A DNA stretch of 64,000 nt from Strigamia acuminata (lineage: Eukaryota): positions 5,952,001 to 6,016,000 of the forward strand of contig OX442314.1 in assembly GCA_949358305.1 (NCBI GenBank). The letters are read 5' to 3'. Position numbers and translations under genes: made by a program. How positions within the stretch are numbered: the stretch's first letter is position 1; every line of letters begins with the position of its first letter. Below the pieces are notes generated by a model. That model was not told the origin of the DNA and did not search any database. It worked only from the letters and a program-made list of their open reading frames with translations. Below are positions 7,337-49,800 of the stretch, piece by piece.

Positions 7337-8918
7337 TGTGATGATTACAAATCAATAGTTGTCAATGTTCACCATAGATGGCGCTGTTTAACCAACGCGC
7401 GTATTTCAAACTCGGTTAAAAACTAAAAAGTGTGATAAATAATTATTTAGACACGGTGAATAAAATATAACTATTTTATTCGATATAAATTAAGTATTAA
7501 TTACTTGATGATGTTGATTCTATCGAATCAATGTCCACTTTACTTACCTGTCGAAGGGAACCAATCGGACCCTTCCGGACCCCAACTGGGCCCATCTGGA
7601 CATAGTCACATATTAGGTCCGGACTAGTGACCCACGAATCCGCCGATTCGTACGCTGATTGGCTGTCGCCAATCTAGTAGTTCTACAGAACTATATAAGC
7701 ATCAGTTTTCCACTTCCCCAGGGCTTGGCTTGATAACTGTAAATGTCTGTAATTGAATTGTTGTTATCGTTTGATTTCACTTTCTTATCGACACATCAGG
7801 CCTCCTCAGCTCTCAATGGATATGTAGACTTACTATCTCGTTATTGCTTGTTGTAAGGCCCATCTGGGAAGGCTAACCTTGTAGACATGTTAACAACATG
7901 AAATGGCCCCGTAGTGTTAGCCAGCTGTTCTAAGGGACAGTAGGATTTCATACGGTGGCATAGTATAATGCTCATGCACGGGATTGACTAACCCGTTAAA
8001 TAAATGTCAAACTATATGATCGGTGATAGTCGCATCTATCTGAGCGATTCCTCGGACGAGGGTCAGACGCTCTGCCAAGAGCGTGTGTGCGGGAGGTCCC
8101 ACCCGAGCACGAAACAAACACGGACAAATGCTATTCCAGGGCGAATTGCGTATCATAGGTCCTTCCGTACTTTAGTGGTCGGTGAATGGCATATTTAAAG
8201 GCACACTACGCCGGGTTGGTAGCCCGTGAGAATTGTCCGTGAAGACATTTCGTTAAACAATTACTCAGGTATTGGTAATCCTGGAATTGGTAAATCCATA
8301 GGAATGTTTACCCGGTGGTTGGTACCACCGATAGCGATGTAAAGCGTACAAACAAATACTCGGCGCCTGATCACGAGATCTTGTCGTCGTAAGGCATGCT
8401 GGCGGATGGAGCCTCAACAACTCCCGCGACGGTCCTGTCGACTGTCGTGACTGTCCCCGCCCCATTAATATTTATACAACAATTCATTTGTTGTATTCCA
8501 CTAATCACTTTGTATTTATTTGACCTGGAATATTCTACAGAATATTCCTTTCCATACGAAGGACTCTTCGTATTATTAGATATTCGAGCTGCGGACCAAA
8601 TGCGTCTCCGTAGCGATATTTGTGACGATGCCGCAAGTCAGCCGTATCCCTCTGGCTTCGCCCGGATCCTCAACCAGTTGATGCCGCCCGTTTACACGCG
8701 TCAAGAACCCATTTACTGTTATCATTAATATTTAGTAATAAATATGTTAAGTCACACTAAAACTGTAAGTTATTTCTATTCGATCACATATTCATGTTTG
8801 TAAAGGCTTCCGTAGCTTATCTCGGTTAGGTTGTTGCTAAACTTAGCAACGTCTTGTATAAACCGAATTATCTATCTTAAAAGGACTAATAAATTGGCCC
8901 AAAAGTAGAATCGTCACA
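7337..8918 (+). repeat. 5' LTR of B
   Basis: TGTGATGAT...ATCGTCACA. Direct repeat of 19796-21377. TATATAA at 7692. Confidence 0.97.
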
Positions 8919-8920
8919 AG

Positions 8921-8938
8921 TGGAGGTTCTACCGAGAT
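8921..8938 (+). promoter_or_regulatory. PBS of B (tRNA-Gln)
   Basis: TGGAGGTTCTACCGAGAT, 2 nt after the LTR. Confidence 0.88.
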
Positions 8939-10054: not shown

Positions 10055-12286
10055 ATGACTAATAACCAGCATCACATGAACACCCGTGGTAAGGAAAGAA
10101 CTTGTTTGACCGGTGGAATGAATCTATCCGGGTTTATACCTGTTCCTAATGGAATTGAAGAAGTGGGAAACCACGCGGTCCATAATGGCGTTTCAAATGA
10201 AACAGCCGGACCATCTGGAGAGAATAGAGCTCCACGTGAACCTACTCCGCCTGGAGAAGAGGAATGCATTCCTGAAGGTTCTCATTTAGGCCGAGGCGGT
10301 CTATTATTTTGTCAGGATCACGGTTTGAACCCAAACCAATTTAGATCTTTGACCGAAGTGTTAGATTTTATACACGCGCCTCGTGCTACGTCGGAGCAAT
10401 CCCATTCCCCAGCCAGCCAAAGATTAAATAATTTTAGTCCCACTCCTTCGACGCCTATTTCTAGATATAGAAATAAAAATGCACAACCTCCTCGTCAAGA
10501 TCAGTCGAATTTGACACCAGGAGATTTTAATCGTGCTTTTCAACAACGATTACGAGCGAATAACTTCGCTCGCAACCGACAAAGAGGATTTACAAATCCA
10601 GAAAACTTTGAGAATACGTTCAACAGAGCGAATTTGGGTCCGCCTAACATGGCCAACCCTAATCCAAGTTTTCCAAACGGATCAAATAGTTGTCCGAATC
10701 TCGCTGGAAATTTGAACCCAAATTCAGGTGTGACAAGAGGTCCAAACCGTCGTTTTGACCCAAACTCTAGATTTGCAAACAATTCTAGTCCAGCACCTAA
10801 CATGCAAAGGGGTCACCCAGTTCCTCCGAACTCGAATAACCCAAATAATCCTTCTACTGGAACTCCAGGAAATTCAAATAACTATTTGAATCAGGGTGCG
10901 CCAGATAATTCGAACTATCGTCCGAATTTTGGTAATCAAGAAAATTCGAACAACCGCCCGAATTTTGACAATCCGGGTAATTCTAATAATCATTCGAATT
11001 ATGGGAACCGAGGCAATTCGAATAACCATTCGAACTTTGGTAACCACAGCAGGTCAAATCAAGGAGGGTCGAATAATTTCAACCCTAATAGTGGTGGCTC
11101 AAGTCAAAATAACTCGAGTCAACCAAAAAATAATGGCGGGTCGTCAAACGACAACTCGCGCCCCCCTAGTAGTTTTGGAATGACGGCTGATGACCTCGCG
11201 TCAATTGCCACAACCATGCACAAATTAATGCAGGCTGGAAAAAGTTCCGCCACTGTCCCTCAAACTAACAGTTTGAAACCCCCAGATATCCCTGTATTCT
11301 CAGGAAAAGCAGAAGAAAGCGAACGCTTTCTCAATATTGTAAAAAATGTCGCTTTTCTGCGAAACATGTCACTCGATGACATGCTTGTTAAAGGCGTTGC
11401 TGGTTATCTAACCGAGCAAGCGCATGGTTGGTTTCATGAACGAAGAGAAGATTTTATATCTTGGGAAGTATTTGAACAGGCGTTCAAAGAACGATTTGTA
11501 GCCACTCGACAAGAGCGGACGAACCAACTAACTAAGTTGAAACAACTGGAAACAGAAAGTCTTTACGACTTTATGCACAAATATTACCAGTTATGGATAT
11601 TACAAGACAGTCTTGATGCAAAAGGGGCTGGTTGTCTTTTTATCGGGAGTGTAACTCCTGCTAATGATTTGCTTTTACATACGCAAGGCATAGCGGATTT
11701 ACCTCTGACAGAGATTTATTCCGTTATAACGAAAAATAAAGGCTTGTACAGTCGTACAGCTAATGGAGCAAGGGAAAATATCTCCAATCCAGTTGTTTTC
11801 CCACCTCGGAAAACTGACACTCGTCCTCAGCCGAAGACAAATGCTAAATCTTTAACTTTGGATTCACAAGAACAACTTAATATTTGTGAAGAAGAGTTAC
11901 CAGAGGAATGCGAGGCCGTCTATTTAATAAATGGAGTAGTAGATCAGACCAGACGTGGTCAATTAGTTTGTTACCACTGTAAGAAACCAGGACACATGCG
12001 TCGAGAATGTCCAGATTTAAAACCACGTGCAAAGTTCAACTCTGAAGAGTTGCCAAAACGAAGTACGCCAGATTCCCCGACTGTGGATCCTACTTCTAAA
12101 CGTCCTAATAACAGATGGATAACTCAAGAAGTGTTGGATGCAACACTGGATGCTAAACTTGATGCGAAATTAAATACTTTTGAAAATAAGTTACAAACTT
12201 CGCTGACTAACTCATTGGCAGAAATGGTCAAGACTTTGATCAAGCCCGAATCTGCTGATTCAAGTGCGACTAGTTCAAAAAACTAG
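10055..12286 (+). CDS. gag: Gag of B (743 aa)
   Basis: Asn/Gly/Pro-rich N-terminal half, retrotransposon capsid-like region (IPVFSG...AHGWF...WEVFEQAFKERF), CCHC knuckle CYHCKKPGHMRREC. Confidence 0.95.
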   Translation: MTNNQHHMNTRGKERTCLTGGMNLSGFIPVPNGIEEVGNHAVHNGVSNETAGPSGENRAPREPTPPGEEECIPEGSHLGRGGLLFCQDHGLNPNQFRSLTEVLDFIHAPRATSEQSHSPASQRLNNFSPTPSTPISRYRNKNAQPPRQDQSNLTPGDFNRAFQQRLRANNFARNRQRGFTNPENFENTFNRANLGPPNMANPNPSFPNGSNSCPNLAGNLNPNSGVTRGPNRRFDPNSRFANNSSPAPNMQRGHPVPPNSNNPNNPSTGTPGNSNNYLNQGAPDNSNYRPNFGNQENSNNRPNFDNPGNSNNHSNYGNRGNSNNHSNFGNHSRSNQGGSNNFNPNSGGSSQNNSSQPKNNGGSSNDNSRPPSSFGMTADDLASIATTMHKLMQAGKSSATVPQTNSLKPPDIPVFSGKAEESERFLNIVKNVAFLRNMSLDDMLVKGVAGYLTEQAHGWFHERREDFISWEVFEQAFKERFVATRQERTNQLTKLKQLETESLYDFMHKYYQLWILQDSLDAKGAGCLFIGSVTPANDLLLHTQGIADLPLTEIYSVITKNKGLYSRTANGARENISNPVVFPPRKTDTRPQPKTNAKSLTLDSQEQLNICEEELPEECEAVYLINGVVDQTRRGQLVCYHCKKPGHMRRECPDLKPRAKFNSEELPKRSTPDSPTVDPTSKRPNNRWITQEVLDATLDAKLDAKLNTFENKLQTSLTNSLAEMVKTLIKPESADSSATSSKN

Positions 12287-12317
12287 ATCCGGGGGACGAA
12301 GGTTTATTCCATCCCCC
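12277..12317 (+). promoter_or_regulatory. -1 ribosomal frameshift signal between gag and pol of B
   Basis: A AAA AAC immediately before the gag TAG, 7-nt spacer, GGGGGA...TCCCCC stem. The -1 frame is open into pol. Confidence 0.85.
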
Positions 12318-12321
12318 AGAA

Positions 12322-15300
12322 GTGGCTAATGCTACGTCGGAATCTTTGTTTATGGATGTAGACACAACTTGTCTTGAAGTAGCCACTAGTCATAGTGGCG
12401 GAGTAGAGGAAAATCTGCAAGAAATGACAGAACAATTAAAAAATCTGACATTGTTTCCACACAAGTGCTACACGAAGAAATTCTGTAGACTCCGCCGACT
12501 CAACAGAGTCATAGGTGGTAATAATTTGCACAATATTACTTTGGGTAATAATAAAGATGATCCTCGAATGAAGATCACAATTGGTGGGCTCACCTACAAC
12601 GCGCTCATGGATACAGGAGCATCTCAATGTTACATTGGGGAACAACTCTTGTCTGAAACTCAGGCTTTGCCAGAATTTTTGCAAGAAGCCCCTAGAAATA
12701 TGTTGGTTAACGCTGTAGGCGTAGCACACAAGCCTGTCGGACAAATAACTTTGTGCGTGCAATGGGCTGATGAATTTACACCAATGAATTTCATCGTTTT
12801 AGCAAAACGAGTTTGTGGCTTGATACTTGGTCACAATTTCATGCGCAGACAGAAAATTAGTCCGCATCCACATTTACAAGAGTTCTCTTGTGCAGATAAA
12901 CCTAATTGGTCCGCCCCTTATGAGTCGGAAGAAGCCAATTTGGCCCTCGCCCCGTTAAATCGAATTACTTTCGATTATTTAGGACTGTCGTCCATTCTCA
13001 ACTCAATTGAGTTAACAGACACTCCTGTGTTGACTTGGGATGAAAAATTAGTTGAGGAGAGCGACTGCACTCCGGAGCAAAGATTAGCACTTCGCGAAGT
13101 GGTTAAATCGATACCGAATGTATTTCGTGATCAAGTTGGGTGCACTAACGTGACCCAGCATCGTATTAAGTTCAAAGAAGGGCATTCATTGCCCAAAATG
13201 CAGTATAGAATGTATAACCCGGCCAAGAGAGCCATTATGACCAAACTAGCTGCAGAATTGGAACAGGATGGACTCATTGAAAAGGCCAAGGGGCCCTTCA
13301 TAAGTCATCCCGTCATTGTTGCGAAGCCTGACGGCTCGTATAGGATGTGCATTGACTACCGGTGGCTAAATGCCATCACCGAAGTCGAAGTAATACAAAT
13401 GCCAAGTATTGACCTTTTATTGCATAATACTGGTCCTGCTAGGTATTTTACGTCAATTGACCTTGTCAAAGGTTACTACCAAGTCGAGATGTGTAAAGAA
13501 GATCGACCAAAGACGGCATTTTACACGCCAAATGGTCCATATCAGTTTGTGCGAATGCCGTTTGGCCTTTGCAATGCGCCTTGTACTTTCCAGCGTCTGA
13601 TGGAAGGCATTTTAGGCTCAGCTTTGCAAGACTACGCGTTAGTTTATTTGGATGACGTAATTGTGTATTCAGATAATTGGGATGATCATCTCAAACACGT
13701 TCGAGATGTTCTAGAAAGGCTTAACCAAGCCAACATGACAATAAATAAAGCGAAATCTCGTTTTGGGCGTACAGAATTAAAATTCTTGGGCCACTGGATT
13801 AAACCCGAAGGTCTCTTCGGTGATCCCGATAAAATATCGGCGATTATGAAATTTCCCACCCCCACGTGTGCTAAAGACATTCAGCGCTTTCACGGCATGA
13901 CTAACTTCTTCAGGAAGTTTGTTCCAAATCACGGAACTATTGCCGCACCATACACACGTATGATGAATGAGAAAACTCCATTTGAATGGGGAGATGAGCA
14001 GACAGAAGCTTTTAATAAAATTAAAGAGCTACTTTGTGGTGACAATTGTCTACACAAACCAGATATGACTTTACCATTTGTTGTCATGACTGACGCTTCA
14101 CATGAAGGCTTAGGAGCTGTCCTTTGCCAAGACGTCGATATATTCGATGAAAAGAAGCAGAAAAACATTTCTGTACCCAAACCTGTAGCTTATGCAAGCA
14201 GAGTTTTACGTGGAGCGGAGAAGCGTTATACAACGCCGGAACTCGAATGTCTCGCAGTTGTGTGGGCTATTGATCGATTTAAACCATATCTCGAATATGG
14301 TACATTCACTTTAGAGTCAGATGCAGAAGCACTGAAATGGTTGATGCGAACGCCTGAACCATCTGGGAAATTTGGCCGATGGGCCTTAAGAATCCAATGT
14401 GGAAATTTTAAAATTGTTTTTCGAAAAGGTGCTGCTAACCAAGTTGCAGATGCACTTTCTAGAGCCCCACTAACAGAGGAAGACATTCCTCTTCGAGATC
14501 ATGTGGAACCTGTCGAAATTAAACAATACTGGCCTGAGTGGGACGGAAATCCTTCTGTTTCATTAAATCGTGCCCCAGAAAAACGAGAATATTTGGCTAG
14601 TGTGCGTTCCTATTTTTCTGAAAATTCTAAAGAATGTTCTGAAGAAAAGGAGGGGGAGGAAGTACAAGAAACCTTGTACAGTGCGTTGACTGAAGTACTT
14701 AAAGAAGTCCCTCCTACAAGGAGAGAAATAATAAATGCTCAATTACTAGATAATGAATGCAAACGCATTCGAGAATATTTATTGAATAACAAGGTTGTTG
14801 GGATACCACAATCTGAAATAAAAGAATGGAAAAACAAAGTCAAAAATTATTGTTTAGACAAAAAAGAAGTTGATGGTGATCAAATGATCATCTATTTTAA
14901 CCCTTCATTCGAAGAGGAATTAAACGATTCGGGAAATGGCTTTAAAGCCGTTGTACCCAGTGCACTTGTAAAGCGAGTACTCTTCGCTTGTCATGGCCAC
15001 CCCCTAAGCGGTCACGCTGGGATGAGTAAGACGCTTGAGAAAACGCGTTTAATATATTTCTGGCCTGGTATGAGTAGAAGTGTCAGGAACTACGTCAAAA
15101 GCTGCACGCACTGTGCTCAGTACAAGCCTATTCAACAGAAAAGGCACGCAGCTCCTTACACGCCACACAACATGACCAATCCTTGGGAATGTATTAATAT
15201 GGACTTGATGGGCCCAAAACCCGCGGGAAGGTCCCAAAACCAGTATATTTTTGTCATTATTGACAATTGTACCAAGTTCGTTGAAATTAAGGCTTTGACA

Positions 15301-16482
15301 AAAGCCACGAGCGCTAACTGCGTTCAAGAATTAAGATCTGTTACAAACAGATGGGGACACCCCAAAAAGATTGTGAGCGATAACGGAAAACAATTTGTTT
15401 CCGATATTTACAATGAGTATTGCGAAATGTACAACATTCGCCCGTCTCATACGAGCACGTATCATGCTCAGGCGAACCCGACAGAGCGAGCCAATAGAGA
15501 TATAAAGACGATGCTGGCCCTGTACACAGATGTGCACACGCAATGGCCGCGTTATTTAGACGAATTTGCATTCGCAATGCGAAATAATGTTTCGGCAGCA
15601 ACGGGCTCAAGCCCGATGTTACTGAACACCGGACGAATCGTAACATTACCTTTCGACCCAAGGATTATTAAACATGCCAATCCATTTGACAAAGAAAATC
15701 CAGAAAAATATGTCAGAGTATTATTAGATATATTACGCAGATCGCATCAAGAGATGCATCGCAGAATTCAATTGAATTTTGAACGACATAGAAAAATACA
15801 CGAACAAAAGTTCGTAATTACGGAGTTCGAAGTTGGAGATTTAGTTTGGAAACAAACTCACATTCTCTCGTGCGCAGATAAAAATATCTCCGCTGGATTT
15901 GCCGAGAAGAGAGATGGTCCGTGGGAAATTACTAAAGTACTTCCTGGCGGAGCGTATAAATTACGCAAATTAGCTGATGGTTCAATTGAAAAATCAGTGA
16001 ATATTAAAGCGTTGTACCCCTATACTCCGTCGTACCCGATTGAGACTTGGAAAGTAGGACAAAAGTCCGCCTCCTACTCGCCTCAAGAAAATCCTAAATG
16101 GATGGACGAAAGTAATCAACTTCCGGATGCTGAAGAAATGGAATTAATTCCTGAAACTTCTTCAGAAATTCCAATGGAATTATCCGACTCAACTTCGGTG
16201 CAAATTGACAAATCTGCGCCCATTAAGTCTAAACATAGACATAGACAACGATTAACTGCTATGGAAAGGAAAGCGGCGTTAAAAAGAGGCGAAGTTCCAA
16301 AGAAACCGCCTCGAAAACCCCGCAAACCCCAACCGATAGTTCCACGAACTAGCACTCGTCCACGACGAGAACGAAAACCAAATCCTAAATATGCAGATGA
16401 AAATTTCGTGCGAAACATCACTGTAGTATTTAAAAAACCATACCAACAACGAGGAAAAGCCTCAAAGTTCTGTTGGAATTGA
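12322..16482 (+). CDS. pol: Pol of B: protease, RT, RNase H, integrase (entered by frameshift from ~12283)
   Basis: LMDTGA, YLDD, TDAS/ELECLAV, HGHPLSGH...CTHC, MDL/SDNG/ERAN, DGPW. Domain order PR-RT-RH-IN is Ty3/Gypsy. Confidence 0.98.
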   Translation: MANATSESLFMDVDTTCLEVATSHSGGVEENLQEMTEQLKNLTLFPHKCYTKKFCRLRRLNRVIGGNNLHNITLGNNKDDPRMKITIGGLTYNALMDTGASQCYIGEQLLSETQALPEFLQEAPRNMLVNAVGVAHKPVGQITLCVQWADEFTPMNFIVLAKRVCGLILGHNFMRRQKISPHPHLQEFSCADKPNWSAPYESEEANLALAPLNRITFDYLGLSSILNSIELTDTPVLTWDEKLVEESDCTPEQRLALREVVKSIPNVFRDQVGCTNVTQHRIKFKEGHSLPKMQYRMYNPAKRAIMTKLAAELEQDGLIEKAKGPFISHPVIVAKPDGSYRMCIDYRWLNAITEVEVIQMPSIDLLLHNTGPARYFTSIDLVKGYYQVEMCKEDRPKTAFYTPNGPYQFVRMPFGLCNAPCTFQRLMEGILGSALQDYALVYLDDVIVYSDNWDDHLKHVRDVLERLNQANMTINKAKSRFGRTELKFLGHWIKPEGLFGDPDKISAIMKFPTPTCAKDIQRFHGMTNFFRKFVPNHGTIAAPYTRMMNEKTPFEWGDEQTEAFNKIKELLCGDNCLHKPDMTLPFVVMTDASHEGLGAVLCQDVDIFDEKKQKNISVPKPVAYASRVLRGAEKRYTTPELECLAVVWAIDRFKPYLEYGTFTLESDAEALKWLMRTPEPSGKFGRWALRIQCGNFKIVFRKGAANQVADALSRAPLTEEDIPLRDHVEPVEIKQYWPEWDGNPSVSLNRAPEKREYLASVRSYFSENSKECSEEKEGEEVQETLYSALTEVLKEVPPTRREIINAQLLDNECKRIREYLLNNKVVGIPQSEIKEWKNKVKNYCLDKKEVDGDQMIIYFNPSFEEELNDSGNGFKAVVPSALVKRVLFACHGHPLSGHAGMSKTLEKTRLIYFWPGMSRSVRNYVKSCTHCAQYKPIQQKRHAAPYTPHNMTNPWECINMDLMGPKPAGRSQNQYIFVIIDNCTKFVEIKALTKATSANCVQELRSVTNRWGHPKKIVSDNGKQFVSDIYNEYCEMYNIRPSHTSTYHAQANPTERANRDIKTMLALYTDVHTQWPRYLDEFAFAMRNNVSAATGSSPMLLNTGRIVTLPFDPRIIKHANPFDKENPEKYVRVLLDILRRSHQEMHRRIQLNFERHRKIHEQKFVITEFEVGDLVWKQTHILSCADKNISAGFAEKRDGPWEITKVLPGGAYKLRKLADGSIEKSVNIKALYPYTPSYPIETWKVGQKSASYSPQENPKWMDESNQLPDAEEMELIPETSSEIPMELSDSTSVQIDKSAPIKSKHRHRQRLTAMERKAALKRGEVPKKPPRKPRKPQPIVPRTSTRPRRERKPNPKYADENFVRNITVVFKKPYQQRGKASKFCWN

Positions 16483-17532
16483 TAAGTTTTATTCAAAACT
16501 TGAAGACTGTAATTATTTACATGTCAGACAGGTGTAGTGATTTATAATCTCAACACCGGGGGACAAGATATTACGATATTTATCGAAATTTGTATTAAAA
16601 TATGAATTTGTTGCGATAAGTCAAAATATTCGATAGAATATTTTATTATGTGGTCAGATTTATATGTATTTTAATTAAAATACAGAGAATTACTTTGAAA
16701 AGTGATAATCTCGCGTAATTACGAAGGTACGAGACTTACGAGGTGTGATTAAACCTCGAACCCGACAATTAATAGGGAATAAAATTCCCAGGGTTCATTG
16801 CACACAAACACTTCGTAAAAAACACGGATACTAGTGACTTCGTCCCTTCGACCCGTCTTCATTTTTCGACTCGAGATTTCCACGCTAATTCAATTAGCGA
16901 CTTCAGCAAGGAAAACAAGCTTCAACAGTAAGTAGTTTTCAAATATATTCTTTGACCAAAGAATTGAAAAAATTGTTTGCAACAATTGAAAATATCGGCG
17001 TCCCGATAAAAGTTAAAAAATTCACGTGTATTATAAGCGTGAATCGGCATTAAATCACTCTGGAAGTTTAGCTATTCAGTCGAATAGTTGGGTTAAATTT
17101 AATAATTATTTATTAAGTTTAAGTACGTGGGCACTAATTATTTAAATCAAGTCGCGGTCGAGGCTTGCATAAATTATTTAGCGGTGAATTTTCGATTTGA
17201 GATATTCATTAGACTAAGTGTTAATTAATTAATACGAAAAGTTATCTTTGATACTCGGAAGTTGGATTAAATAGTTTAAAGAAACTAAGGGGATTTTTCT
17301 TTTGAAAATTCAACAAGTTGCGATTTTCGATGAAAAATCGCTGTCAGGCGAGTCCATTCTCGTGTCATAAACACAAGGGGAATGTGACTCATTAGTGTCA
17401 CGTGTTAGGGGTTATAAATAACTCGAGCTGTGTATTTTTCGTTGCGAACAATACGTTTTAATTCTTTGGACTCAAGGAATGATTATTTAGAGTGGAATTA
17501 TTTTTAATAAAATAATTTATTTGCGTCTGCAG

Positions 17533-19053
17533 ATGGGAGGTGGTAAACACCGCTCAAAACGGAGTCATCGACGACACCGTCATGAAAGCTCGTCCAGCTC
17601 GTCCACCTCGTCTAGTGACGAGCAACGCCGTTCAGCGGAACGTGCTTACATGAGGGCCCAACCGATACCGACGGCGCCCGCCTCGATGTACGCCCTGACG
17701 CCGCTGCAACTCGCGACGCTAAATTGGCTCAGTGTCCATCCAGACGGATTTCCGCTCGATTTGAATGCGATGATGCAGGCCCCGTCCACTTCTGCTCAGC
17801 CAACCGTTTATGAGTCGGCGCAAATGGCCCCGTTGGCCCAGGTGGCGTATCCGCCCGCGAACGTTATCAACGTCCCGTTGGCCCCGCATTCGCCAGAATT
17901 TCGGCCGCCAACTGCAAGCGTGGCGCCCACCGTCGCCAACACGTCGAATGCGACTGCACCGACTGTGACGGGACAATCAGTGTCGGTTACGCATCTTCCT
18001 GCTGGTGCTGAGTCTTCTGCATCAGAATATGGATGGAACGAGCCGCCACCGGGCGCTCTGCGTTATTCGGAGCCTGTTTCTCGCAACCGCGAGTACAGAG
18101 CGGCCAATAAAGCGAAAAAGAAGGATGAGAAGGCCCGCCTGCGCAAGGAGCAGTGCGAACGAGACATGGCAGCCGGAATACCTCACGATAACATCGTGAC
18201 GGACCAAGCCACGGAGACGATATGCCCATTTTGCGTCGGCTGTGGGTGGTGCTGCGGTGCATCCGCAGGTTCTTCGCTTATGCGTTGTCCAAACTGCCGT
18301 GGAAGGAAAACGCGCCCGCGTTCGGAGCCGTGGCGCAAGGAGGTTCAGCCCCACGTGGTGAAAGGCATTAAGCCTAACGAGAAGCGATGTTGGGCTCACT
18401 GCCCCAAGTGCCGATTGTTTTTGAACAGCCGTGGCGAAGCGGTTTACATCGACCCGCGCTTCCTCACCTGGGCCCGCGCTGAAGCCAACGCCGGCGTAAG
18501 AGTCGAACTCCTTCGACAATCACCGCCGCCGTCCGAGGACTCCGAAGTTTCGACTGAAACTGTCCAAGCCGTCGAGAGCGCCGGAAGCGAGGTCATGGAA
18601 GAATTCGTTCGACCCAGAACGATGTCGCGTGGACGAGGCTGTCTGACGCTCGACCGAGCAAGAGAAATCGCCAAGGTTCAACGAACCAATATCTTGGCAC
18701 GAGGGCGAGCTCGTAAGCTTCAACAGGCCGTAGAAGCACCGTCTAAACCCGTGGAGGATCCTCCAGCGGTCATAACTGACGTGTCGAGCGCTCCTATCGC
18801 GTCTAAGTCCGAGACTTCGGACGACGCTCAGTTTGAAGACGCCGAAGAGCTGCTTTCCGTCGTCGATTTCGTGGCAGAGTTGCTCGAGGATCTGCCGTTC
18901 CCACCTCCGAGCCCAGAGGAGATTGAAGCGCCGGAGGAAGCCGTGTTTTCCGCCGTCTCGACAGAGGCGACTGAAGAGTCGGATTTCCTGACTTCTGCCG
19001 AAGTCGAGAAACCAGAAGTGAAGGAACCGACTGAAGTCGAAAAGAAGGATTAA
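17533..19053 (+). CDS. ORF3 of B: ~506-aa protein of unknown function with basic N-terminus, Cys-rich putative zinc-binding core and acidic C-terminus; not Env-like
   Basis: Long GC-rich ORF in the env position. ATG directly follows an acceptor-like CTGCAG. Conserved in C with many synonymous changes. No signal peptide or TM segment seen. Confidence 0.85.
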   Translation: MGGGKHRSKRSHRRHRHESSSSSSTSSSDEQRRSAERAYMRAQPIPTAPASMYALTPLQLATLNWLSVHPDGFPLDLNAMMQAPSTSAQPTVYESAQMAPLAQVAYPPANVINVPLAPHSPEFRPPTASVAPTVANTSNATAPTVTGQSVSVTHLPAGAESSASEYGWNEPPPGALRYSEPVSRNREYRAANKAKKKDEKARLRKEQCERDMAAGIPHDNIVTDQATETICPFCVGCGWCCGASAGSSLMRCPNCRGRKTRPRSEPWRKEVQPHVVKGIKPNEKRCWAHCPKCRLFLNSRGEAVYIDPRFLTWARAEANAGVRVELLRQSPPPSEDSEVSTETVQAVESAGSEVMEEFVRPRTMSRGRGCLTLDRAREIAKVQRTNILARGRARKLQQAVEAPSKPVEDPPAVITDVSSAPIASKSETSDDAQFEDAEELLSVVDFVAELLEDLPFPPPSPEEIEAPEEAVFSAVSTEATEESDFLTSAEVEKPEVKEPTEVEKKD

Positions 19054-19785
19054 AAGGGACAAATTAACATTCGTTATTTTTCCGAGTGGATATTTTTGAC
19101 TAAAATAATCCAAGTGTTTTGTTGTGTTTTTTGCAATTACGAAATATTCTCATGAGTGTTGTGTTTGTTTGGTTTCAAGATTTTGAACTAATCATTAAAT
19201 ACTCGAACGAGTATAGTTTAATTTTAAAATTGGATTCAATTTAATTTGTTTTGTTTTTCGAATTCAATTTGGATGTTTATTTGAATTAATCATATTAATA
19301 TCTGTGTGATTGTTTAGTTTATTTTTCATAATTATTTGTGAAAATTGTGTTTGTTTTTGCTTTGATCAAAGCGTTGAAAAATTTCAAGTTGAAATTCGTT
19401 AATTTTTTATGACAATCGTAATAAAAAATTAGTAGTTTAGATTTTCAATAAATAAAGTTTGCATAAATTTATTTTTATTGATTATCTTGTTGATTAATAA
19501 GCTATGAATAAGTTTATTTGACGAAGAAATAAAATTTCTATCGAAATTTGTATTTTCTCGAACATGTATCCATGTTCGGACGAGTCCATTTCCGTCGCTT
19601 AGCAACCGGGAGTTGCGCCGTGCAGAGAAGCCGATTAGTCTAATCGGGTGACGAAGTTTCTGAAAGAAATAACATGATTAAGTTAATAAAAAATACTTAC
19701 CAAGTGGATTAATTCGATAGAATTAGGTGAACATTCTTATCCATTAAGAATGACAATCGAGAGTTAGTAAACTCTATGTTTGTCA

Positions 19786-19795
19786 CCGGGGGATG
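19786..19795 (+). promoter_or_regulatory. Polypurine tract of B
   Basis: CCGGGGGATG abutting the 3' LTR. Confidence 0.8.
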
Positions 19796-21377
19796 TGTGA
19801 TGATTACAAATCAATAGTTGTCAATGTTCACCATAGATAGCGCTGTTTAACCAACGCGCGTATTTCAAACTCGGTTAAAAACTAAAAAGTGTGATAAATA
19901 ATTATTTAGACACGGTGAATAAAATATAACTATTTTATTCGATATAAATTAAGTATTAATTACTTGATGATGTTGATTCTATCGAATCAATGTCCACTTT
20001 ACTTACCTGTCGAAGGGAACCAATCGGACCCTTCCGGACCCCAACTGGGCCCATCTGGACATAGTCACATATTAGGTCCGGACTAGTGACCCACGAATCC
20101 GCCGATTCGTACGCTGATTGGCTGTCGCCAATCTAGTAGTTCTACAGAACTATATAAGCATCAGTTTTCCACTTCCCCAGGGCTTGGCTTGATAACTGTA
20201 AATGTCTGTAATTGAATTGTTGTTATCGTTTGATTTCACTTTCTTATCGACACATCAGGCCTCCTCAGCTCTCAATGGATATGTAGACTTACTATCTCGT
20301 TATTGCTTGTTGTAAGGCCCATCTGGGAAGGCTAACCTTGTAGACATGTTAACAACATGAAATGGCCCCGTAGTGTTAGCCAGCTGTTCTAAGGGACAGT
20401 AGGATTTCATACGGTGGCATAGTATAATGCTCATGCACGGGATTGACTAACCCGTTAAATAAATGTCAAACTATATGATCGGTGATAGTCGCATCTATCT
20501 GAGCGATTCCTCGGACGAGGGTCAGACGCTCTGCCAAGAGCGTGTGTGCGGGAGGTCCCACCCGAGCACGAAACAAACACGGACAAATGCTATTCCAGGG
20601 CGAATTGCGTATCATAGGTCCTTCCGTACTTTAGTGGTCGGTGAATGGCATATTTAAAGGCACACTACGCCGGGTTGGTAGCCCGTGAGAATTGTCCGTG
20701 AAGACATTTCGTTAAACAATTACTCAGGTATTGGTAATCCTGGAATTGGTAAATCCATAGGAATGTTTACCCGGTGGTTGGTACCACCGATAGCGATGTA
20801 AAGCGTACAAACAAATACTCGGCGCCTGATCACGAGATCTTGTCGTCGTAAGGCATGCTGGCGGATGGAGCCTCAACAACTCCCGCGACGGTCCTGTCGA
20901 CTGTCGTGACTGTCCCCGCCCCATTAATATTTATACAACAATTCATTTGTTGTATTCCACTAATCACTTTGTATTTATTTGACCTGGAATATTCTACAGA
21001 ATATTCCTTTCCATACGAAGGACTCTTCGTATTATTAGATATTCGAGCTGCGGACCAAATACGTCTCCGTAGCGATATTTGTGACGATGCCGCAAGTCAG
21101 CCGTATCCCTCTGGCTTCGCCCGGATCCTCAACCAGTTGATGCCGCCCGTTTACACGCGTCAAGAACCCATTTACTGTTATCATTAATATTTAGTAATAA
21201 ATATGTTAAGTCACACTAAAACTGTAAGTTATTTCTATTCGATCACATATTCATGTTTGTAAAGGCTTCCGTAGCTTATCTCGGTTAGGTTGTTGCTAAA
21301 CTTAGCAACGTCTTGTATAAACCGAATTATCTATCTTAAAAGGACTAATAAATTGGCCCAAAAGTAGAATCGTCACA
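19796..21377 (+). repeat. 3' LTR of B
   Basis: Direct repeat of 7337-8918 at offset 12459. Confidence 0.97.
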
Positions 21378-22045
21378 AGTTTCCCTCGGAAAAGTAAAAG
21401 ATTTTATCCAATCTTCTCTTTTCGGAAATGTTAAACAGTGTTTCAAGTTTCCAACGATATTTGGGTCTCCCAAATTTTGAGAATTTCTAAATGAAATTTA
21501 ACTGTTTGAAAAACAACAAATGTTTTAGTTATCTAATCGGATATTTTCCCAAGTGATTTCTTAAACCAGGAATAACAAATTCATTTGTGGCTACGAACTT
21601 TGCCACATGAAATATTTACGGATCGAATATTTCTTGACTGGATTGAAGCTTTAAAAATCAGATAGCTGATTTAAACGAAGAAAATAAGTTTCAACGTGTT
21701 TATTTTCTTTCTGAAAGATCAAATAAACCACCGCTGATGAAAAGTTGCATTTTTCCATTCGAAAAACTAAGAATTACAAGAAAGTTTATTTTCTATTTGA
21801 ACATAGATTTTATTCGGAAAAAGGAAAGATTCAAGATGCATTATTTTTCTCTAAAAATTAAGAATGTGGTCAAATTTCCTAAAAAGCTAGTGGAATGTGA
21901 TCATACATATACTTTCAGATCTCGGGATCTCGGGATCTCGGTCTCGGCAATCTCGGGCTTTTTTTTGGGGGAAATCTCGGTCTCGTTAAACCGAGATTTC
22001 GTCCCGAGATACGTACGAGATACGTACAAAAGTTCAAAACCAATC

Positions 22046-22172
22046 AAAACGGTTTTGATTGGTTTTGAACGGGGCAAAACGGTTTTGATTGGTTTTGAAC
22101 GAGGCAAAACGGTTTTGATTGGTTTTGAACGGGGCAAAACGGTTTTGATTGGTTTTGAACGGGCCAAAACGG
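22046..22172. repeat. 30-bp tandem repeat, ~4 copies
   Basis: AAAACGGTTTTGATTGGTTTTGAACGGGGC repeated. Confidence 0.95.
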
Positions 22173-22194
22173 CATTGTTACGTTTTTAGCACTA

Positions 22195-23802: not shown

Positions 23803-25545
23803 TGTGACGATTCTACTTTTGGGCTAATTTATTAGTCCTTTTAAGATAGATAATTCGGTTTATACAAGACGTTGCTAAGTTTAGCAACAACCTAACCGAG
23901 ATAAGCTACGGAAGCCCTTACAAACATGAATATGTGATCAAGTGGAAATAACTTACAGTTTTGGTGTGACATAACATATTTATTACTAAATATTAACAAC
24001 AAAATATGGGTTCTTGACGCGTGTAAACGGGCGGCATCAACTGGTTGAGGATCCGGGCGAAGCCAGAGGGATACGGCTGACTTGCGGCATCGTCACAAAT
24101 ATCGCTACGGAGACGTATTTGGTCCGCAGCTCGAGTATCTAAAAATGCGAAGAGTCCTTCGCATAAGTAGGATTATTCAGCAGAATATTCCATATTCCAA
24201 ATGAATAAAAGTAAAGTAATTAGTGGAATACAACAAATGAATTGTTGTATAAATATTAATTGGGCGGGGACCGTCACGACAATTGAGAGAACGTCGCGGG
24301 AGTTGTTGAGACTCCATCCGCCAGCATGCCTTACGACGACAAGATCTCGTGATCAGGCGCCGAGTATTTAATTGTGTGCTTTAACTCGCTATCGGTGGTA
24401 CCAACCACCAGGTAAACATTTCTATGGACTTACCGGGTTTAGAAGATATTGCCAATACAGGATTACCAATGCCCGAGTAATTTATTTAACACAGTGTTGT
24501 TCAACTCCTGTTCACGGGTTACTAACCCGGAGGGTACGATGGGGCGGGGACCGTCACGACGGTCGAGAGAACCATCGCGGGAGGATTTGACTCCTCCATC
24601 CGCCAGCATGCCTTACGATGGCGGGATCCAACGATCGAGCACCGGGTAAAATATTAATTGGCCACTGCCATTGGATTACCATTATCCAGGTAGTTGTTTT
24701 ATCGCAACATCTTTAGATATTACTCACGGGCTACCAACCCGGCGTGTTACCTGTATATTAGGCTTTTACCGACTTTTAACGTGCGGAAGGACCAATCGAG
24801 AAAAGACGGGAACCTGCGAGGGCTGTTTACAACAACCACCCTGCAGCGGACTGAGGCCAGTTAGCTGAGGGACCTACTTTCATTTAGCAAGGTCGTACTG
24901 TATACGACCGTTATATTAAGCCACCGTACGAAGTCCTACTGTCCCGTAGAACAGCTGGCTAACGTTACGGGGCCATTTCATGCGAATGCATGTCTATTAC
25001 CGGAGTTAGCTTTCCCGAAATAGCCCTACAACAGCAATAACAAAATAGTAATGAATACTAACTGTGGAGAGCTGAGGTGGCCTGATGTGTCGATAGAGAA
25101 TAATGAAATCAAACGATAACAATTCAACTACAGACAATATACAAGTTCAGTTATCAAGCCAAGGGGGAAGTGAGAAACTGGAGCTTATATAGTTCTGTAG
25201 AACTACTAGATTGGCGACAGCCAATCAGCGTACGAATCGGCGGATTCGTGGGTCACTAGTCCGGACCTAATATATGACTATGTCCAGATGGGCCCAGTTG
25301 GGGTCCGGAAGGGTCCGATTGGTTCCCTTCGACTGGTAAGTAAAGTGGATATTGATTCGATAGAATCAACATCATCAAGTAATTAATACTTAATTCATAT
25401 TGAATAAAATAGTTATATTTTATTCACCGTGTCCAAGTAATAATTTATTACGCTTTTTAGTTTTAACCGAGTTTGAAATACGCGCGTTGGTTAAACAGCG
25501 CCATCTATGGTGAACATTGATAACTATCGATTTGTAATCATCACA
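23803..25545 (-). repeat. 3' LTR of C
   Basis: Direct repeat of 36442-38184 at offset 12639. Confidence 0.97.
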
Positions 25546-26282
25546 CATCCCCCGGTGACAAGCATAGAGTTTACTAACTCTCGATTGTCATTCTTAATGG
25601 ATAAGAATGTTCACCTAATTCTATCGAATTAATCCACTTGGTAAGTATTTTATTAAACTTAATCATGTTATTTCTTTCAGAAACTTCATCACCCGATTAG
25701 ACTAATCGGCTTCCCTGTACTGCGCAACTCCCGGTTGCTAAGCGACGGAAATGAACTCGTCCGAACATGGATACATGTTCGAGAAAACTAATTTCGATAG
25801 AAATTTTATTTCTCCGTCAAATAAACTTATTCATAGTTTATTAATCAACAAGATAGTCAATAAAAATAAATTTATGCAAAACTTTATTTATCGAAAATCT
25901 AAACTACTAATTCTTTATTACGAATGTCATAAAAAAAATTAACGAATTTCAACTTGAAATTCTTAATCGCTTCGATCAAAGCAAAATAAACACAAAGTTT
26001 CCACAAATAATTATGAAATTGCAAATAAACATATATTAATATGATTAGTTCAAAATAACAACCAAATTGAATTCGGAAAACAAAACAAATTAAATTGAAT
26101 TCAATTTTAAATCAAACTATATTCTTATGAATATTTAAATAATTAGTTCAAGATCTTGAAACCAAACAAACACAACACTCATGAGAATATTTCTTAATTG
26201 CAAAAACACAACAAAACACTTGGATTATTTTTAGTCAAAAATATCCACTCGGAAAATAACGAATGTTAGTTTTTTTTTCCTT

Positions 26283-27800
26283 TTAATCCTTCTTTTCGAC
26301 GTCAGTCGAAACTTTCTCATCCTTTTTCTCGACTTCAGCAGAAGTCAGAAAATCAGACTCTTCAGTCGCCTCTGTCGAGACGGCGGAAAACACAGCTTCT
26401 TCCGGCGCTTCGATTTCATCCGGACTCGGAGGCGGAAACGGCATGTCGTCGAGAAGCTCAGCCACGAAATCAACGACTGAAAGCAGCTCTTCAGCGTCCT
26501 CGAACTGTGCGTCGTCCGAAGTCTCAGACTTAGACGCTAGAGGGGCGCTAGACACGTCGGTTACGGCCGCTGGAGGATCCTCCACGGGTTTAGACGACGT
26601 TTCAACAGCCTGTTGAAGCTTACGAGCTCGCCCTCGTGCCAAGATGTTGGTGCGTTGAACTTTGGCAATTTCTCTCGCTCGGTCGAGCGTCAGACAGCCT
26701 CGTCCTCACGACATCGTTCTCGGTCGAACGATTTCCTCTACGACCTCGCTTCCGGCGCTCTCGACGGCCTGGACAGTTTCAGTTGAAACTTCGGAGTCTT
26801 CAGACGGCGGCGGCGACTGTCGAAGGAGTTCGACTCTTACGCCGGCGTTGGCTTCAGCGCGGGCCCAGGTGAGGAAGCGCGGGTCGATGTAAACCGCTTC
26901 GCCGCGACTATTCAGGAAAAGTCGGCACTTTGGGCAGTGAGCCCAACATCGCTTCTCGTTAGGCTTAATGCCTTTCACCACGTGGGGCTGAACCTCCTTG
27001 TGCCACGGCTCCGAACGCGGTCGCGTTTTCCTTCCTCGACAGTTGGGACATCTCATTAATGAGGAACCTGCGGATGCACCGCAGCACCACCCACAACCGA
27101 CGCAAAAGGGGCAGATCGTCTCAGTTGCCTGGTCCGTTACGATGTTATCGTGCGGAATTCCTGCAGCCATGTCACGTTCGCATTGTTCTTTGCGCAGGCG
27201 GGCCTTCTCGTCCTTCTTTCTGGCCTTGTTGGCCGCTCGGTACTCGCGGTTGCGAGAAACAGGCTCCGAATAACGCAAAGCGCCCGGCGGCGGCTCATTC
27301 CATCCGTATTCTGATGCAGAAGACTCAGCACCAGCAGGAAGATGCGTAACAGACGCTGATTGTCCCGTCACAGTCGGTGCCGCCGCATTCGACGTGTTGG
27401 CGACGGTGGGCGCCACGCTTGCAGTTGGCGGCCGAAATTCGAGTGAATGCGGGGCCAACGGGACGTTGATAACGTTCGCGGGCGGATATGCCACCTGGGC
27501 CAGCGGGGCCATTTGCGCCGACTCATAAATAGTTGGTTGCGCAGAAGTGGACGGGGCCTGCATCATCGCATTTAAGTCGAGCGAAAGTCCGTCCGGATGG
27601 ACGCTCAGCCAATTAAGCGTTGCGAGTTGCAACGGCGTCAGGGCGTACATCGAGGCGGGCGCCGTCGGTATCGGTTGGGCCCTCATATAAGCGCGCTCGG
27701 CCGAACGACGTTGCTCGTCACTAGACGAGGTGGACGAGCTGGAGCTTTCGTGACGATGACGTCGATGACTCCGTTTCGAACGGTGTTTACCACTTCCCAT
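26283..27800 (-). pseudogene. ORF3 of C, interrupted by an in-frame TGA at 26706-26708
   Basis: ORFs 26706-27812 and 26283-26642 share a frame and together match ORF3 of B, which has Arg at the stop position. Confidence 0.85.
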
Positions 27801-28854
27801 CTGCAGACGCAAATAAATTATTTTATTAAAAATAATTCCACTCTAAATAGTCATTCCTTGAGTCCAAGGAATTTAAACGTATTGTTCGCAACGAAAAATA
27901 CACAACTCGAGTTATTTATAACCCTCAACATGTGACACTAATGAGTCACATTCCCCTTGTGTTTATGACACGAGAATGGACTCGCCGGCAAAGATTTTCA
28001 TCGAAAATCGCAACTTGTTGATTTTTCAAAAGAAAAATTCTTTTAGTTTCTTTAAACTATTCAATCCAACTTTTCGAATATCAAAGATAACTTTCGTATT
28101 AATTAATTAACACTTAGTCTAATAAATATCTCAAATCGAAAATTCACCGCTAAATAATTTATGCAAGCCTCGACCGCGACTTGATTTAAATAATTAGTGC
28201 CTACATACTTAAAACTTAATAATTCATTATTAATTTTAACCCAACTATTCGACTGAATAGCTAAACTTCCAGAGTGATTTAATGCCGATTCACGCTTATA
28301 ACAGCACGTGAATTTATAACCTTTATCGGGACGCCGATATTTTACCAATTGTTGCAAACAATTCTTTTAAATTCTTTGGTCAAAGAATATTATTGAAAAC
28401 TACTTACGGTTGAAGCTAGTTTTCCTGTTTGAGTCGACTAAATGAATTAGTGTTGAAATTCTCAAGTCGAAAGAATGAAGACGGGTCGAAGGAACGAAGT
28501 CACTAGTATCCGTGTGTATTACGAAGTGTTTGTGTGCAATGAACCCTGGGAATTTTATTCCCTATTAATTGTCGGGTTCGAGGTTTAATCACACCTCGTA
28601 AGTCTCGTACCTTCGTAATTACGCGAGATTATCACTTTTCAAAGTAATTCTCTGTATTTTGGTTAAAATACATGTAAATACGACCAAAAAATTAAAATAT
28701 TCTACCGAATATTTAATTCATCGCAACAAATTCATATTTTAATATAAATTTCGATAAATATCGTAATATCTTGTCCCCCGGTGTTGAGATTATAAATCAC
28801 TACACCTGTCAGACATGTAAATAATTACAGTCTTCAAGTTTTGAATAAAACTTA

Positions 28855-33015: not shown

Positions 33016-33050
33016 TTCTGGGGGATGGAATAAACCTTCTTCCCCCGGAT

Positions 33051-35297: not shown

Positions 35298-36421
35298 AAC
35301 TAAACTTAAAACTAAGAAAATTTCCTAAGTCTGAGAGATAACGATGAAGTTGCAAACGTTCAGGAGGATCGCAAACGAAGCAGTGGTCACACTAGTTCGA
35401 AAGGAAGTATGGGTACTTCGATACACCTCTCTGATTGGTCAAGTATCAACGCTAGTCTCGCGAGAGTCCAATCTCGTCCGAGATTGGTGGAAATCATCAA
35501 GTTCGTGGAACCGTAATCTTGACAGATTCCAGTGTTATGACGTAGTCACCAAACAAAATGGATACTTTTCAAAATATTTTAAAATATCACCGCATTTATT
35601 AATAAATGAATGATCACCTTTGTGGAAATTTTTTAAAGTTTTTAAAACTCGTAATTTCAAAAGACGCGCCGATTCGTTTGAATCGATGGCTTTTCTGCAC
35701 AACACGGGTTGCTAGGCAACACAACAGTAAGAATTCTTCTTCGCTAAAATTCGAATGGTATTCCATTCGTATAATTCGATTTCAATGGCTTGAGATCACG
35801 ATTTTTAACCAACATTTTAATGTAGATCAAGTCTGTAAAATAAGGTAAACCCACTTTGAAATAAAATATAAATTTTAATTCCTTCGGAAAATGTCAATTT
35901 TCCTTCTATTTATTTAGGCAAATAAATTTAGGTTTAACTTGAAGTCTCAAGCAAAATTACTTATTTGGAACATTCTAAAAATAAGGCAACTGTTAAATTG
36001 ATAGAATTCTTTAAGAATTCCGTCAAAGTCGAACTTTTCAAAATTAGGCCTACCCGCGTGGTTTTGTCAGATTGTCGACGACAAAATGACGTTACCCGGG
36101 CGGAACCAACTTCAACAAGTCCGGGCAAGATTCTCATTCTCAGGGTTGGGCCTTTAGGCCTGACCACGTGGTAGAAATTATTAGTTTTGTTAAAACACAT
36201 AATTTCCACGACGGAAAATTGGAATAAAGTGAATTACACTTATTTTCTTGCGAGAAGTTCTAAAACAGAATAAAATATATTAAACGCAAATATAAATTTC
36301 GTTCGAAACTGATTTTACACATCCAAAAAATTTCATTTGAAATTTTATCACTGTAAGCACATTTCCGAATTCTCATAAACACACGAAAAACTTCAAAATT
36401 TATTTTAAATTTAGGCAGCCT

Positions 36422-36439
36422 ATCTCGGTAGAACCTCCA
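36422..36439 (-). promoter_or_regulatory. PBS of C (tRNA-Gln)
   Basis: ATCTCGGTAGAACCTCCA on the + strand, 2 nt from the LTR. Confidence 0.88.
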
Positions 36440-36441
36440 CT

Positions 36442-49780: not shown

Positions 49781-49798
49781 ATCTCGGTGGGACCTCCA
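49781..49798 (-). promoter_or_regulatory. PBS of D (tRNA-Gln), identical to that of A
   Basis: ATCTCGGTGGGACCTCCA on the + strand, followed by CG and then the LTR. Confidence 0.9.
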
Positions 49799-49800
49799 CG

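What the first reader, a model, noticed from the sequence alone, without database searches (positions are those of the whole stretch)
17533..19053. Accessory gene in the env slot: soluble Cys-rich, basic/acidic protein
Seen: a same-strand third ORF, visibly more GC-rich than gag-pol, with an acceptor-like TTTGCGTCTGCAG right before the ATG. It has a basic N-terminus (KHRSKRSHRRHRH), a Pro/Ala region, a basic helix, then CPFCVGCGWCC...CPNCRG...CWAHCPKC, and an acidic tail. There is no signal peptide or TM anchor. B/C differences in the Cys core are largely synonymous. Known: extra ORFs in Ty3/Gypsy elements are usually Env. Inference: a nuclear zinc-binding regulator (transactivator, anti-silencing or integration-targeting factor) made from a spliced subgenomic RNA, analogous to complex-retrovirus accessory genes.
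Basis: partly seen in the sequence, partly recalled or inferred. Interest (0 to 1): 0.8.

Follow-up and report, generated by a model that had tools for sequence, protein, structure and literature searches.

The report
Centipede-type retrotransposon zinc accessory gene
A young Gypsy retrotransposon carries, where retroviruses keep their envelope gene, a strongly conserved gene for a soluble cysteine-rich protein whose only detected relatives are in a centipede genome; it is likely a zinc-binding regulator of the element's own RNA, possibly helping it leave the nucleus, but this is untested.

Summary
[quoted passage not shown] It is under strong purifying selection (dN/dS 0.08 against the second copy), is GC-rich (GC3 0.60 against 0.33-0.38) and has no signal peptide or membrane anchor, so it is not Env. 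New here: the core (residues ~180-312) has relatives at 45-48% identity in Strigamia maritima gene models, downstream of pol pieces from the same Gypsy clade. No family or fold match was found and the models are poor. Splicing, nuclear location and function are untested; no RNA holder was listed. Best reading (0.38): a Rev/CERV-like factor for export of unspliced element RNA, made from a spliced mRNA. A transactivator or anti-silencing role is close behind (0.30). The kind is known (CERV of C. elegans Cer1; plant extra ORFs), but this family looks unrelated and undescribed. The scan noted a different env-slot zinc-finger gene earlier in a sea-urchin element.

The parts
7337..8918 (+). 5' LTR of element A (TG..CA; 4-bp target duplication AGTT)
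   Evidence: 2 differences from the 3' LTR in 1583 columns
8921..8938 (+). Primer-binding site, 2 nt after the LTR; resembles the complement of a tRNA-Gln 3' end (recalled, not tested)
   Evidence: a near-identical site follows the LTR in elements B and C
10055..12286 (+). gag (capsid-like domain, CCHC knuckle)
   Evidence: Pfam Retrotrans_gag, zf-CCHC
12277..12320 (+). Predicted -1 frameshift signal (A-run slippery site followed by a hairpin) joining gag to pol
   Evidence: sequence and fold; function inferred
12352..16482 (+). pol, PR-RT-RH-IN order (Ty3/Gypsy)
   Evidence: Pfam
16554..16563 (+). Second copy of the polypurine-tract 10-mer, 72 nt after the pol stop (central PPT, or relic of the element's 3' end before ORF3 was gained)
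   Evidence: expected 7e-5 in the spacer; kept in copy B
16677..16860 (+). Candidate structured cis element upstream of the acceptor, so present only in unspliced RNA if splicing occurs; contains a 142-nt block identical in both copies
   Evidence: 39 of 5000 shuffles reach 142 nt; z -4.4, 0 of 200 shuffles; window chosen after the fact; gag-pol RNA is similarly structured
17385..17420 (+). AP-1-like and TATA-like motifs, candidate internal promoter (rival to splicing); motif names recalled
   Evidence: kept in copy B; chance 94 of 5000 and 1121 of 5000 shuffles
17484..17532 (+). Candidate splice acceptor (T-rich tract, CAG) abutting the ATG; identical in both copies
   Evidence: rank 13 of 642 AG sites and 2 of 57 in the spacer on an ad hoc score; no RNA evidence
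17533..19053 (+). ORF3, 506 aa, soluble non-Env accessory protein
17533..17625 (+). N-terminal His/Arg-rich stretch followed by a serine run (residues 1-31); the same layout begins the ORF3-like part of Strigamia model P0123
   Evidence: composition only; BLASTP finds no alignment there
18082..18468 (+). Conserved core (residues 184-312): basic helix, C208/H218, CxxC 231/234, 252/255, 290/293; predicted to bind two zinc ions
   Evidence: helix 182-213 is the most confident part of the model (pLDDT 71-76 in two 10-residue blocks)
18613..18726 (+). Second Arg/Lys-rich segment (residues 361-398); no amino-acid change between the copies in 366-400 apart from copy B's stop
18727..19050 (+). Acidic tail (31 D/E in 108 aa) with a hydrophobic patch at 440-456
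19784..19795 (+). Polypurine tract
19796..21377 (+). 3' LTR of element A
23803..38184 (-). Element B, second copy of the family (LTRs 99.8% identical, target duplication AATT)
26283..27800 (-). ORF3 of copy B, interrupted by an in-frame stop at 26706-26708; the part after the stop still shows dN/dS 0.12, so the break is recent

Best explanation
ORF3 is a conserved, element-encoded, soluble non-Env protein with a predicted two-zinc core that likely acts in the nucleus on the element's own RNA, most likely letting the unspliced gag-pol genomic RNA be exported, as Rev and CERV do. Shown: an intact ORF in the env slot, purifying selection, no membrane features, a core shared with centipede elements of the same Gypsy clade. 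Inferred steps: (1) the LTR transcript splices to the acceptor at 17532, removing gag-pol and giving a GC-rich ORF3 mRNA that is exported unaided; (2) the protein enters the nucleus through its basic stretches; (3) the zinc core and flanking Arg/Lys helices bind the A-rich, structured, intron-retaining RNA, with the conserved stem block at 16677-16860 as a candidate site; (4) the low-complexity ends (His/Arg-Ser head, acidic tail) recruit host processing or export factors, so Gag-Pol is made and genomes are packaged.
For: dN/dS 0.081 (bootstrap 0.049-0.116) against 0.149 for gag and 0.047 for pol. 27 of the 40 best-supported variants in public contigs are synonymous, against about 25% of sites (181 further variants were not shown). 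Relatives at E 4e-34, 8e-32 and 2e-6 are Strigamia maritima models; two carry pol pieces upstream and the integrase of P0122 groups with this element at 100/98. C208, H218, C231, C234, C252, C255 are invariant in 5 of 5 rows, and C290, C293 in the 4 rows that reach them. YAG abuts the ATG (chance 0.03) in a 49-nt invariant block, and 7 ATGs in the spacer make scanning from the genomic RNA unlikely. In P0123 the integrase piece is followed by an MG start with the same basic-then-serine head. gag-pol is A-rich (0.33) and structured (mean z -2.6, 14 windows), ORF3 is GC-rich and less structured (-0.9, 10 windows), host DNA is near 0; that A-rich retroviral RNA depends on export factors is recalled from HIV. 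Precedent: CERV, an env-slot, non-Env, spliced, nuclear protein with a Cys loop needed for export of Cer1 genomic RNA (PMC10309623).
Against: No step after 'conserved ORF' is shown. No similarity to CERV: no nematode hit among the 5 proteins returned from 1.84 billion, different Cys spacing, no G domain, no exons shared with gag. NES-like patterns are at chance level (923 of 1000 shuffles) and there is no K(K/R)x(K/R) NLS. No perfect donor exists upstream (best 7 of 9), and the acceptor score is ad hoc, with 11 AG sites scoring higher. The spacer is not more structured than gag-pol (mean z -1.8 in A, -1.1 in B), and only 1 of 214 predicted pairs shows a change on both sides. A TATA-like motif offers expression without splicing, and the acidic-hydrophobic tail suits an activator as well. 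Related element C has no ORF3 yet is young (LTRs 99.8% identical), though it is internally deleted and may be non-autonomous. Copy B has a stop in ORF3.
Confidence: 0.38

Rival explanations
1. ORF3 is a transcriptional activator or anti-silencing factor for the LTR (Tat/Tas-like or VANC-like; these comparisons are recalled), perhaps made from an internal promoter just upstream.
For: Basic helix, zinc core and acidic-hydrophobic tail is a typical activator layout (inference). TATA-like and AP-1-like motifs 115-150 nt upstream are kept in both copies; the AP-1-like one arises in 94 of 5000 shuffles. Strigamia methylates its transposons (PMC6673714). Maize Grande gene23 is nuclear and has its own promoter (PMC7264820). 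The LTR middle is the most diverged part between the copies (15-21%).
Against: The TATA-like motif is common by chance (1121 of 5000). The core protein is nearly unchanged between copies whose LTRs differ by 11%, so there is no sign of co-divergence. No DNA-binding family matches. The YAG abutting the ATG is unexplained.
Confidence: 0.3
2. ORF3 works in the cytoplasm or the particle, for example as a suppressor of small-RNA silencing, a shield against nonsense-mediated decay, or an assembly chaperone using a DnaJ/anti-TRAP-like zinc ribbon.
For: C231-C255 follows the CxxCxGxG ribbon pattern: Pfam Anti-TRAP E 0.084 and 0.019, NCBIfam DnaJ E 0.052, Atlas feature hits at 0.87. The genomic RNA has over 3 kb after the pol stop.
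Against: All these matches are below cut-off and cover only the motif. The single metagenome hit is a bacterial helicase-loader-like gene matched over 38 residues (label from its motifs, recalled). The basic and serine-rich stretches suggest a nuclear protein (inference).
Confidence: 0.14
3. ORF3 tethers the pre-integration complex to chosen chromatin, or carries it into the nucleus.
For: Strigamia Copia elements carry a methyl-CpG-binding domain proposed to steer insertion (PMC6673714). Three related elements sit within 45 kb here.
Against: That domain is shown as part of the Pol ORF architecture in the paper's Fig. 1 legend; ORF3 is a separate ORF 1050 nt from pol. No reader domain (MBD, PHD, chromo) is matched.
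Confidence: 0.1
4. ORF3 is a passenger (recently captured host sequence or a decaying remnant) or a degenerate Env.
For: Its GC3 (0.60) differs from gag-pol, and a second PPT-like motif after pol fits a cassette insertion. Copy B carries a stop.
Against: dN/dS 0.08 across all sub-regions; conserved in another species' elements; GC3 unlike host exons in the window (0.25-0.39); no TM segment or signal peptide here or in relatives.
Confidence: 0.03

Closest known systems
CERV of Cer1, C. elegans Ty3/Gypsy (PMC10309623; abstract, passages and sections 4, 9, 15 read)
   Same: [quoted passage not shown]
   Different: No sequence similarity detected. CERV shares exons with gag, has a leucine zipper and a G-protein-like domain, and its Cys are at 193/195/200/269. 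ORF3 starts at its own ATG, has three CxxC pairs plus C208/H218 and is mostly low-complexity outside a 130-aa core.
Unannotated Strigamia maritima models T1IMA5, T1IH97, T1IU31 (P0122, P0123, P0125)
   Same: True homologs of the core (45-48%, 45%, 33-35%); two lie downstream of pol pieces, and the integrase of P0122 falls in the same clade.
   Different: They are automatic gene models that fuse pol fragments to the ORF3-like part and are named only after pol domains or 'uncharacterized'; they lack C237, C241, C286 and H289.
Retroviral Rev/Rex and Tat/Tas accessory proteins (recalled; summarised in PMC7264820, parts 1-2 of 3 read, and PMC10309623)
   Same: Element-encoded soluble regulators from the 3' half, with basic and Cys-rich motifs.
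   Different: No homology; ORF3 is 4-5 times longer than Rev or Tat (recalled sizes); no response element shown.
Plant LTR-element additional ORFs, e.g. maize Grande gene23 (PMC7264820)
   Same: [quoted passage not shown]
   Different: Antisense with its own promoter; no shared domain.
CopiaMBD of Strigamia (PMC6673714; parts 1-2 of 7 read)
   Same: A centipede LTR element carrying an extra, selected, non-core domain.
   Different: Copia, host-derived MBD; ORF3 has no detected host source.
DnaJ-type / anti-TRAP CxxCxGxG zinc ribbon
   Same: Motif pattern of C231-C255.
   Different: All scores below cut-off; no J domain; extra conserved ligands outside the ribbon.

Membership tests
Ty3/Gypsy LTR retrotransposon (host element) | LTRs, PBS, PPT, target duplication | tested here: met
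Ty3/Gypsy LTR retrotransposon (host element) | gag, then PR-RT-RH-IN order | tested here: met
Env (F-type, gB-type, retroviral) or FAST-like sORF2 | Signal peptide and transmembrane segment | tested here: not met
   max 19-residue hydropathy 1.12, relatives 0.78-0.96, hydrophilic N-terminus
Env (F-type, gB-type, retroviral) or FAST-like sORF2 | Profile match to a fusion glycoprotein | tested here: not met
   no Pfam match other than Anti-TRAP at E 0.084
CERV family | Sequence homology to Caenorhabditis CERV | tested here: inconclusive
   no nematode protein among 5 hits from 1.84 billion; CERV itself was not in hand for a direct profile comparison
CERV family | H, M and G domains; N-terminal exons shared with gag | tested here: not met
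   own ATG and no similarity to gag; no room for a G domain outside the 130-aa core, the rest being low-complexity
CERV family | Ring-forming multimer of the Cys domain | not tested
Rev/CERV-like export factors (works-like) | Made from a spliced mRNA | tested here: inconclusive
   acceptor-like site kept in both copies; no RNA run to test it
Rev/CERV-like export factors (works-like) | Basic RNA-binding/NLS segment and leucine-rich NES | tested here: inconclusive
   three basic segments present; NES-like patterns at 440-456 but 923 of 1000 shuffles have one
Rev/CERV-like export factors (works-like) | Required for cytoplasmic unspliced RNA | not testable with these tools
   needs bench work
DnaJ-type / anti-TRAP zinc ribbon | Paired CxxCxGxG-like motifs | tested here: inconclusive
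   pattern partly present and conserved; profile scores below cut-off; models too poor (pLDDT 54 and 51)

The most novel reading that the evidence does not exclude
A centipede-type Gypsy lineage independently gained a complex-retrovirus-style regulator with a new two-zinc fold and a matching structured RNA element at 16677-16860, forming a Rev/RRE-like switch unrelated to Rev, Rex or CERV: the first such system in an arthropod LTR retrotransposon that my searches would have shown.
Probability: 0.25. Interest if true: 0.75.

Novelty: new variant of a known kind. Interest (0 to 1): 0.52.

Why it matters
How LTR retrotransposons get intron-retaining genomic RNA out of the nucleus, or past host silencing, is known for few elements. 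Among the papers I found, CERV is the only non-Env, env-slot regulator of an animal Gypsy element with a tested nuclear function. An unrelated, selected protein family in the same slot of an arthropod lineage would show that such regulators arose more than once. It offers a compact 130-aa domain and a candidate RNA site that can be tested with reporters. It also shows that automatic annotation hides these genes by fusing them to pol.

Tried and rejected
Word-indexed homolog searches found nothing (0 of 1987 candidates; 0 of 347); only the exhaustive phmmer run found relatives. Two of its 5 hits (P0124, P0126) were dropped as repetitive Thr-rich proteins matched over 42 residues. ESM Atlas: no usable hit for ORF3; leads under 0.9 for P0125. 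PDB sequences: 2 hits at E 0.5-0.6, chance. PHROGs and NCBIfam: nothing above cut-off for ORF3; one unknown-function PHROG at E 5e-4 for P0125, covering the CxxC motif. Two AlphaFold2 models from 5-row alignments were poor (mean pLDDT 53.9 and 50.9). Rfam: 0 matches in 7337-21378. No RNA holder was listed, so there is no verdict on expression or splicing; no joint to 17532 appears among the 15 joints shown of 70, and these runs are contigs of unknown or DNA kind. No whole genome is held. CpG hypermutability does not fully explain the threefold higher dS of ORF3: four-fold sites outside CpG-prone contexts also differ more (9 of 66 against 12 of 172 in pol); RNA-structure constraint in gag-pol or recombination between subfamilies are the alternatives. 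A bZIP, a ferredoxin or an N-myristoylation reading of the motifs was considered from recall and dropped because the needed residues are not conserved in the relatives.

Full report
Observation. The ORF at 17533-19053 is real: 506 codons, against 15 and 21 stops in the other + frames. It lies in element A (7337-21377), a Ty3/Gypsy retrotransposon with 1582-bp LTRs that differ at 2 positions, a 4-bp target duplication, PBS, gag, a predicted -1 frameshift, pol in PR-RT-RH-IN order and a PPT. ORF3 sits 1050 nt after the pol stop and 742 nt before the 3' LTR. Its GC3 is 0.60, against 0.33 and 0.375 for gag and pol and 0.25-0.39 for five host-like exons in the window. It has no signal peptide or TM segment. 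A second copy, B (23803-38184, minus strand), carries the same ORF with an in-frame stop opposite codon 366. No other copy of the ORF is in the window.

Selection. A against B gives dN/dS 0.081 over 505 codons (Sd 111.5, Nd 33.5), between gag (0.149) and pol (0.047). Every sub-region is constrained, including the low-complexity ones and the part after B's stop (0.12). Contigs of public runs X1-X3 cover 30 of 30 bins of the ORF, and X6 covers 8 of 30. They include many variants down to 80% identity. Of the 40 best-supported of 221 variants, 27 are synonymous, where about a quarter is expected, and the listed indels in the ORF keep or restore the frame. One of these runs may be the source of the window, and depth is not copy number. 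dS in ORF3 (0.37) is three times that of gag-pol; gag-pol RNA is unusually structured (mean z -2.6 over 14 windows, against -0.9 for ORF3 and 0.2 and -0.4 for host DNA), which may hold its synonymous sites, but recombination between subfamilies is not excluded.

Relatives. Two word-indexed searches found none. phmmer of residues 170-396 against 1.84 billion proteins gave 5 hits. Two are repetitive false matches. Three are Strigamia maritima gene models: P0122 and P0123 at 45-48% identity over 120-134 residues and P0125 at 33-35%. P0122 and P0123 carry protease or integrase pieces before the ORF3-like part, so the automatic models fused pol to the downstream gene. In an integrase tree of the 30 best-scoring rows with enough coverage out of 64 hits, pol A, element C and P0122 form a clade at 100/98, sister to an unnamed Logan protein, far from all other hits. 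The host is therefore probably a myriapod, but this is inferred from these relatives only. Element C (pol 55% identical) has its PPT about 180 nt after pol and no ORF3, but it has also lost the end of gag and part of the protease, so it may be a non-autonomous derivative.

Anatomy. Invariant in 5 of 5 rows: R204, C208, E209, A214-G215-I216, H218, C231, C234, G238, W239, C252, N254, C255, G257, R263, W267. C290 and C293 are kept in the 4 rows that reach them, and C240 in 4 of 5. C237, C241, C286 and H289 vary; A and B are near-copies, as are P0122 and P0123, so this is about three independent sequences. The simplest reading is one zinc ribbon (231/234 with 252/255, a DnaJ/anti-TRAP-like pattern) and a second site from C208, H218, C290 and C293. 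Profile matches to those families are below cut-off, and both structure models are too poor to name a fold. A His/Arg-rich head followed by a serine run also begins the ORF3-like part of P0123.

Expression. Seven ATGs in the spacer argue against translation from the genomic RNA. A T-rich tract and CAG abut the ATG inside a 49-nt block identical in A and B. On an ad hoc score this AG ranks 13 of 642 in the element and 2 of 57 in the spacer; the best donors match 7 of 9 positions, among them 8765 in the LTR and 9489 in the leader, both kept in B. An internal promoter is possible: a TATA-like motif at 17413 (common by chance) and an AP-1-like motif at 17385 (94 of 5000 shuffles). Upstream of the acceptor, a 142-nt block is identical in both copies (39 of 5000 shuffles) and folds with z -4.4. 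The window was chosen after the fact, covariation is nearly absent with two sequences, and similar z values occur in gag-pol.

Mechanism. I commit to a Rev/CERV-like regulator of unspliced-RNA export at 0.38. If the acceptor is used, the genomic RNA is an intron-retaining RNA that needs help to leave the nucleus, and the one tested analogue does this. A transactivator or anti-silencing role (0.30), a cytoplasmic RNA-protecting or chaperone role (0.14) and integration targeting (0.10) remain open. Only the conserved, soluble, non-Env ORF is shown; zinc binding is a strong inference; location, splicing and function are untested.

Literature. Read: PMC10309623 (abstract, passages, sections 4, 9, 15), PMC6673714 (parts 1-2 of 7), PMC7264820 (parts 1-2 of 3), and passages of PMC13524379, PMC6431247, PMC13486581 and PMC4244043. 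Nine searches listed no description of this family; I saw most results as listings only, and the library lacks most subscription papers and Repbase. I read no supplements; the CERV alignments and the Strigamia repeat analysis (Text S1) may bear on the novelty claim. The scan's earlier notes hold no look-alike sequence and one unrelated env-slot zinc-finger gene in a sea-urchin element, also compared with CERV (not checked here; I had found CERV).

Verdict. Observation confirmed; interpretation partly supported. This is a new protein family of a known kind, a non-Env accessory gene in the env slot of an animal Gypsy element. Interest 0.52.

Noticed in passing
window 16554-16563 and 28774-28783: The 10-mer of the true PPT recurs 72 nt after the pol stop in both copies (expected 7e-5): a central PPT, or a relic of the element's end before ORF3 was gained.
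   Followed up: partly
window 10100-16300 and leader 9100-9350: gag-pol RNA folds better than dinucleotide shuffles in all 14 windows (mean z -2.6); the leader reaches z -6.
   Followed up: partly
window 40461-51394 (minus): Element C: young related Gypsy (pol 55% identical, LTRs 99.8%), no ORF3, internal deletion across the gag end and protease; a Tc1-like element with long inverted ends (41995-43561; label from its layout, recalled) sits in its 3' LTR.
   Followed up: partly
window 39315-40517: Open frame resembling the N-terminal part of these gags (E 2e-7 to gag C), cut by the insertion of element C.
   Followed up: no
window 7737-8537: The middle of the LTR is 15-21% diverged between A and B, with a length difference of about 160 nt, while gag-pol differs by 1-8%.
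   Followed up: partly
window 206-3904 and 58467-61788: Two paralogous sets of exons that look like DEG/ENaC channel genes (label recalled from motifs), about 76% identical, flanking the nest of elements.
   Followed up: no
window 4132-5518 / 52255-53641 and 5507-6047 / 55344-55884: A further repeat pair over 99% identical, possibly LTRs of another element.
   Followed up: no
window 22158-22433 and 56484-56689: 35-nt tandem repeat arrays; the first lies near a self-inverted stretch at 22958-23386.
   Followed up: no
P0125 (UniRef T1IU31): A 132-aa Strigamia model with a divergent half of the core and no pol pieces; it may mark a more distant ORF3 lineage or a host gene.
   Followed up: partly
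L001 1410-2156: Bacterial helicase-loader-like ORF with an N-terminal CxxCxGxGW knuckle; a motif-level look-alike only.
   Followed up: yes
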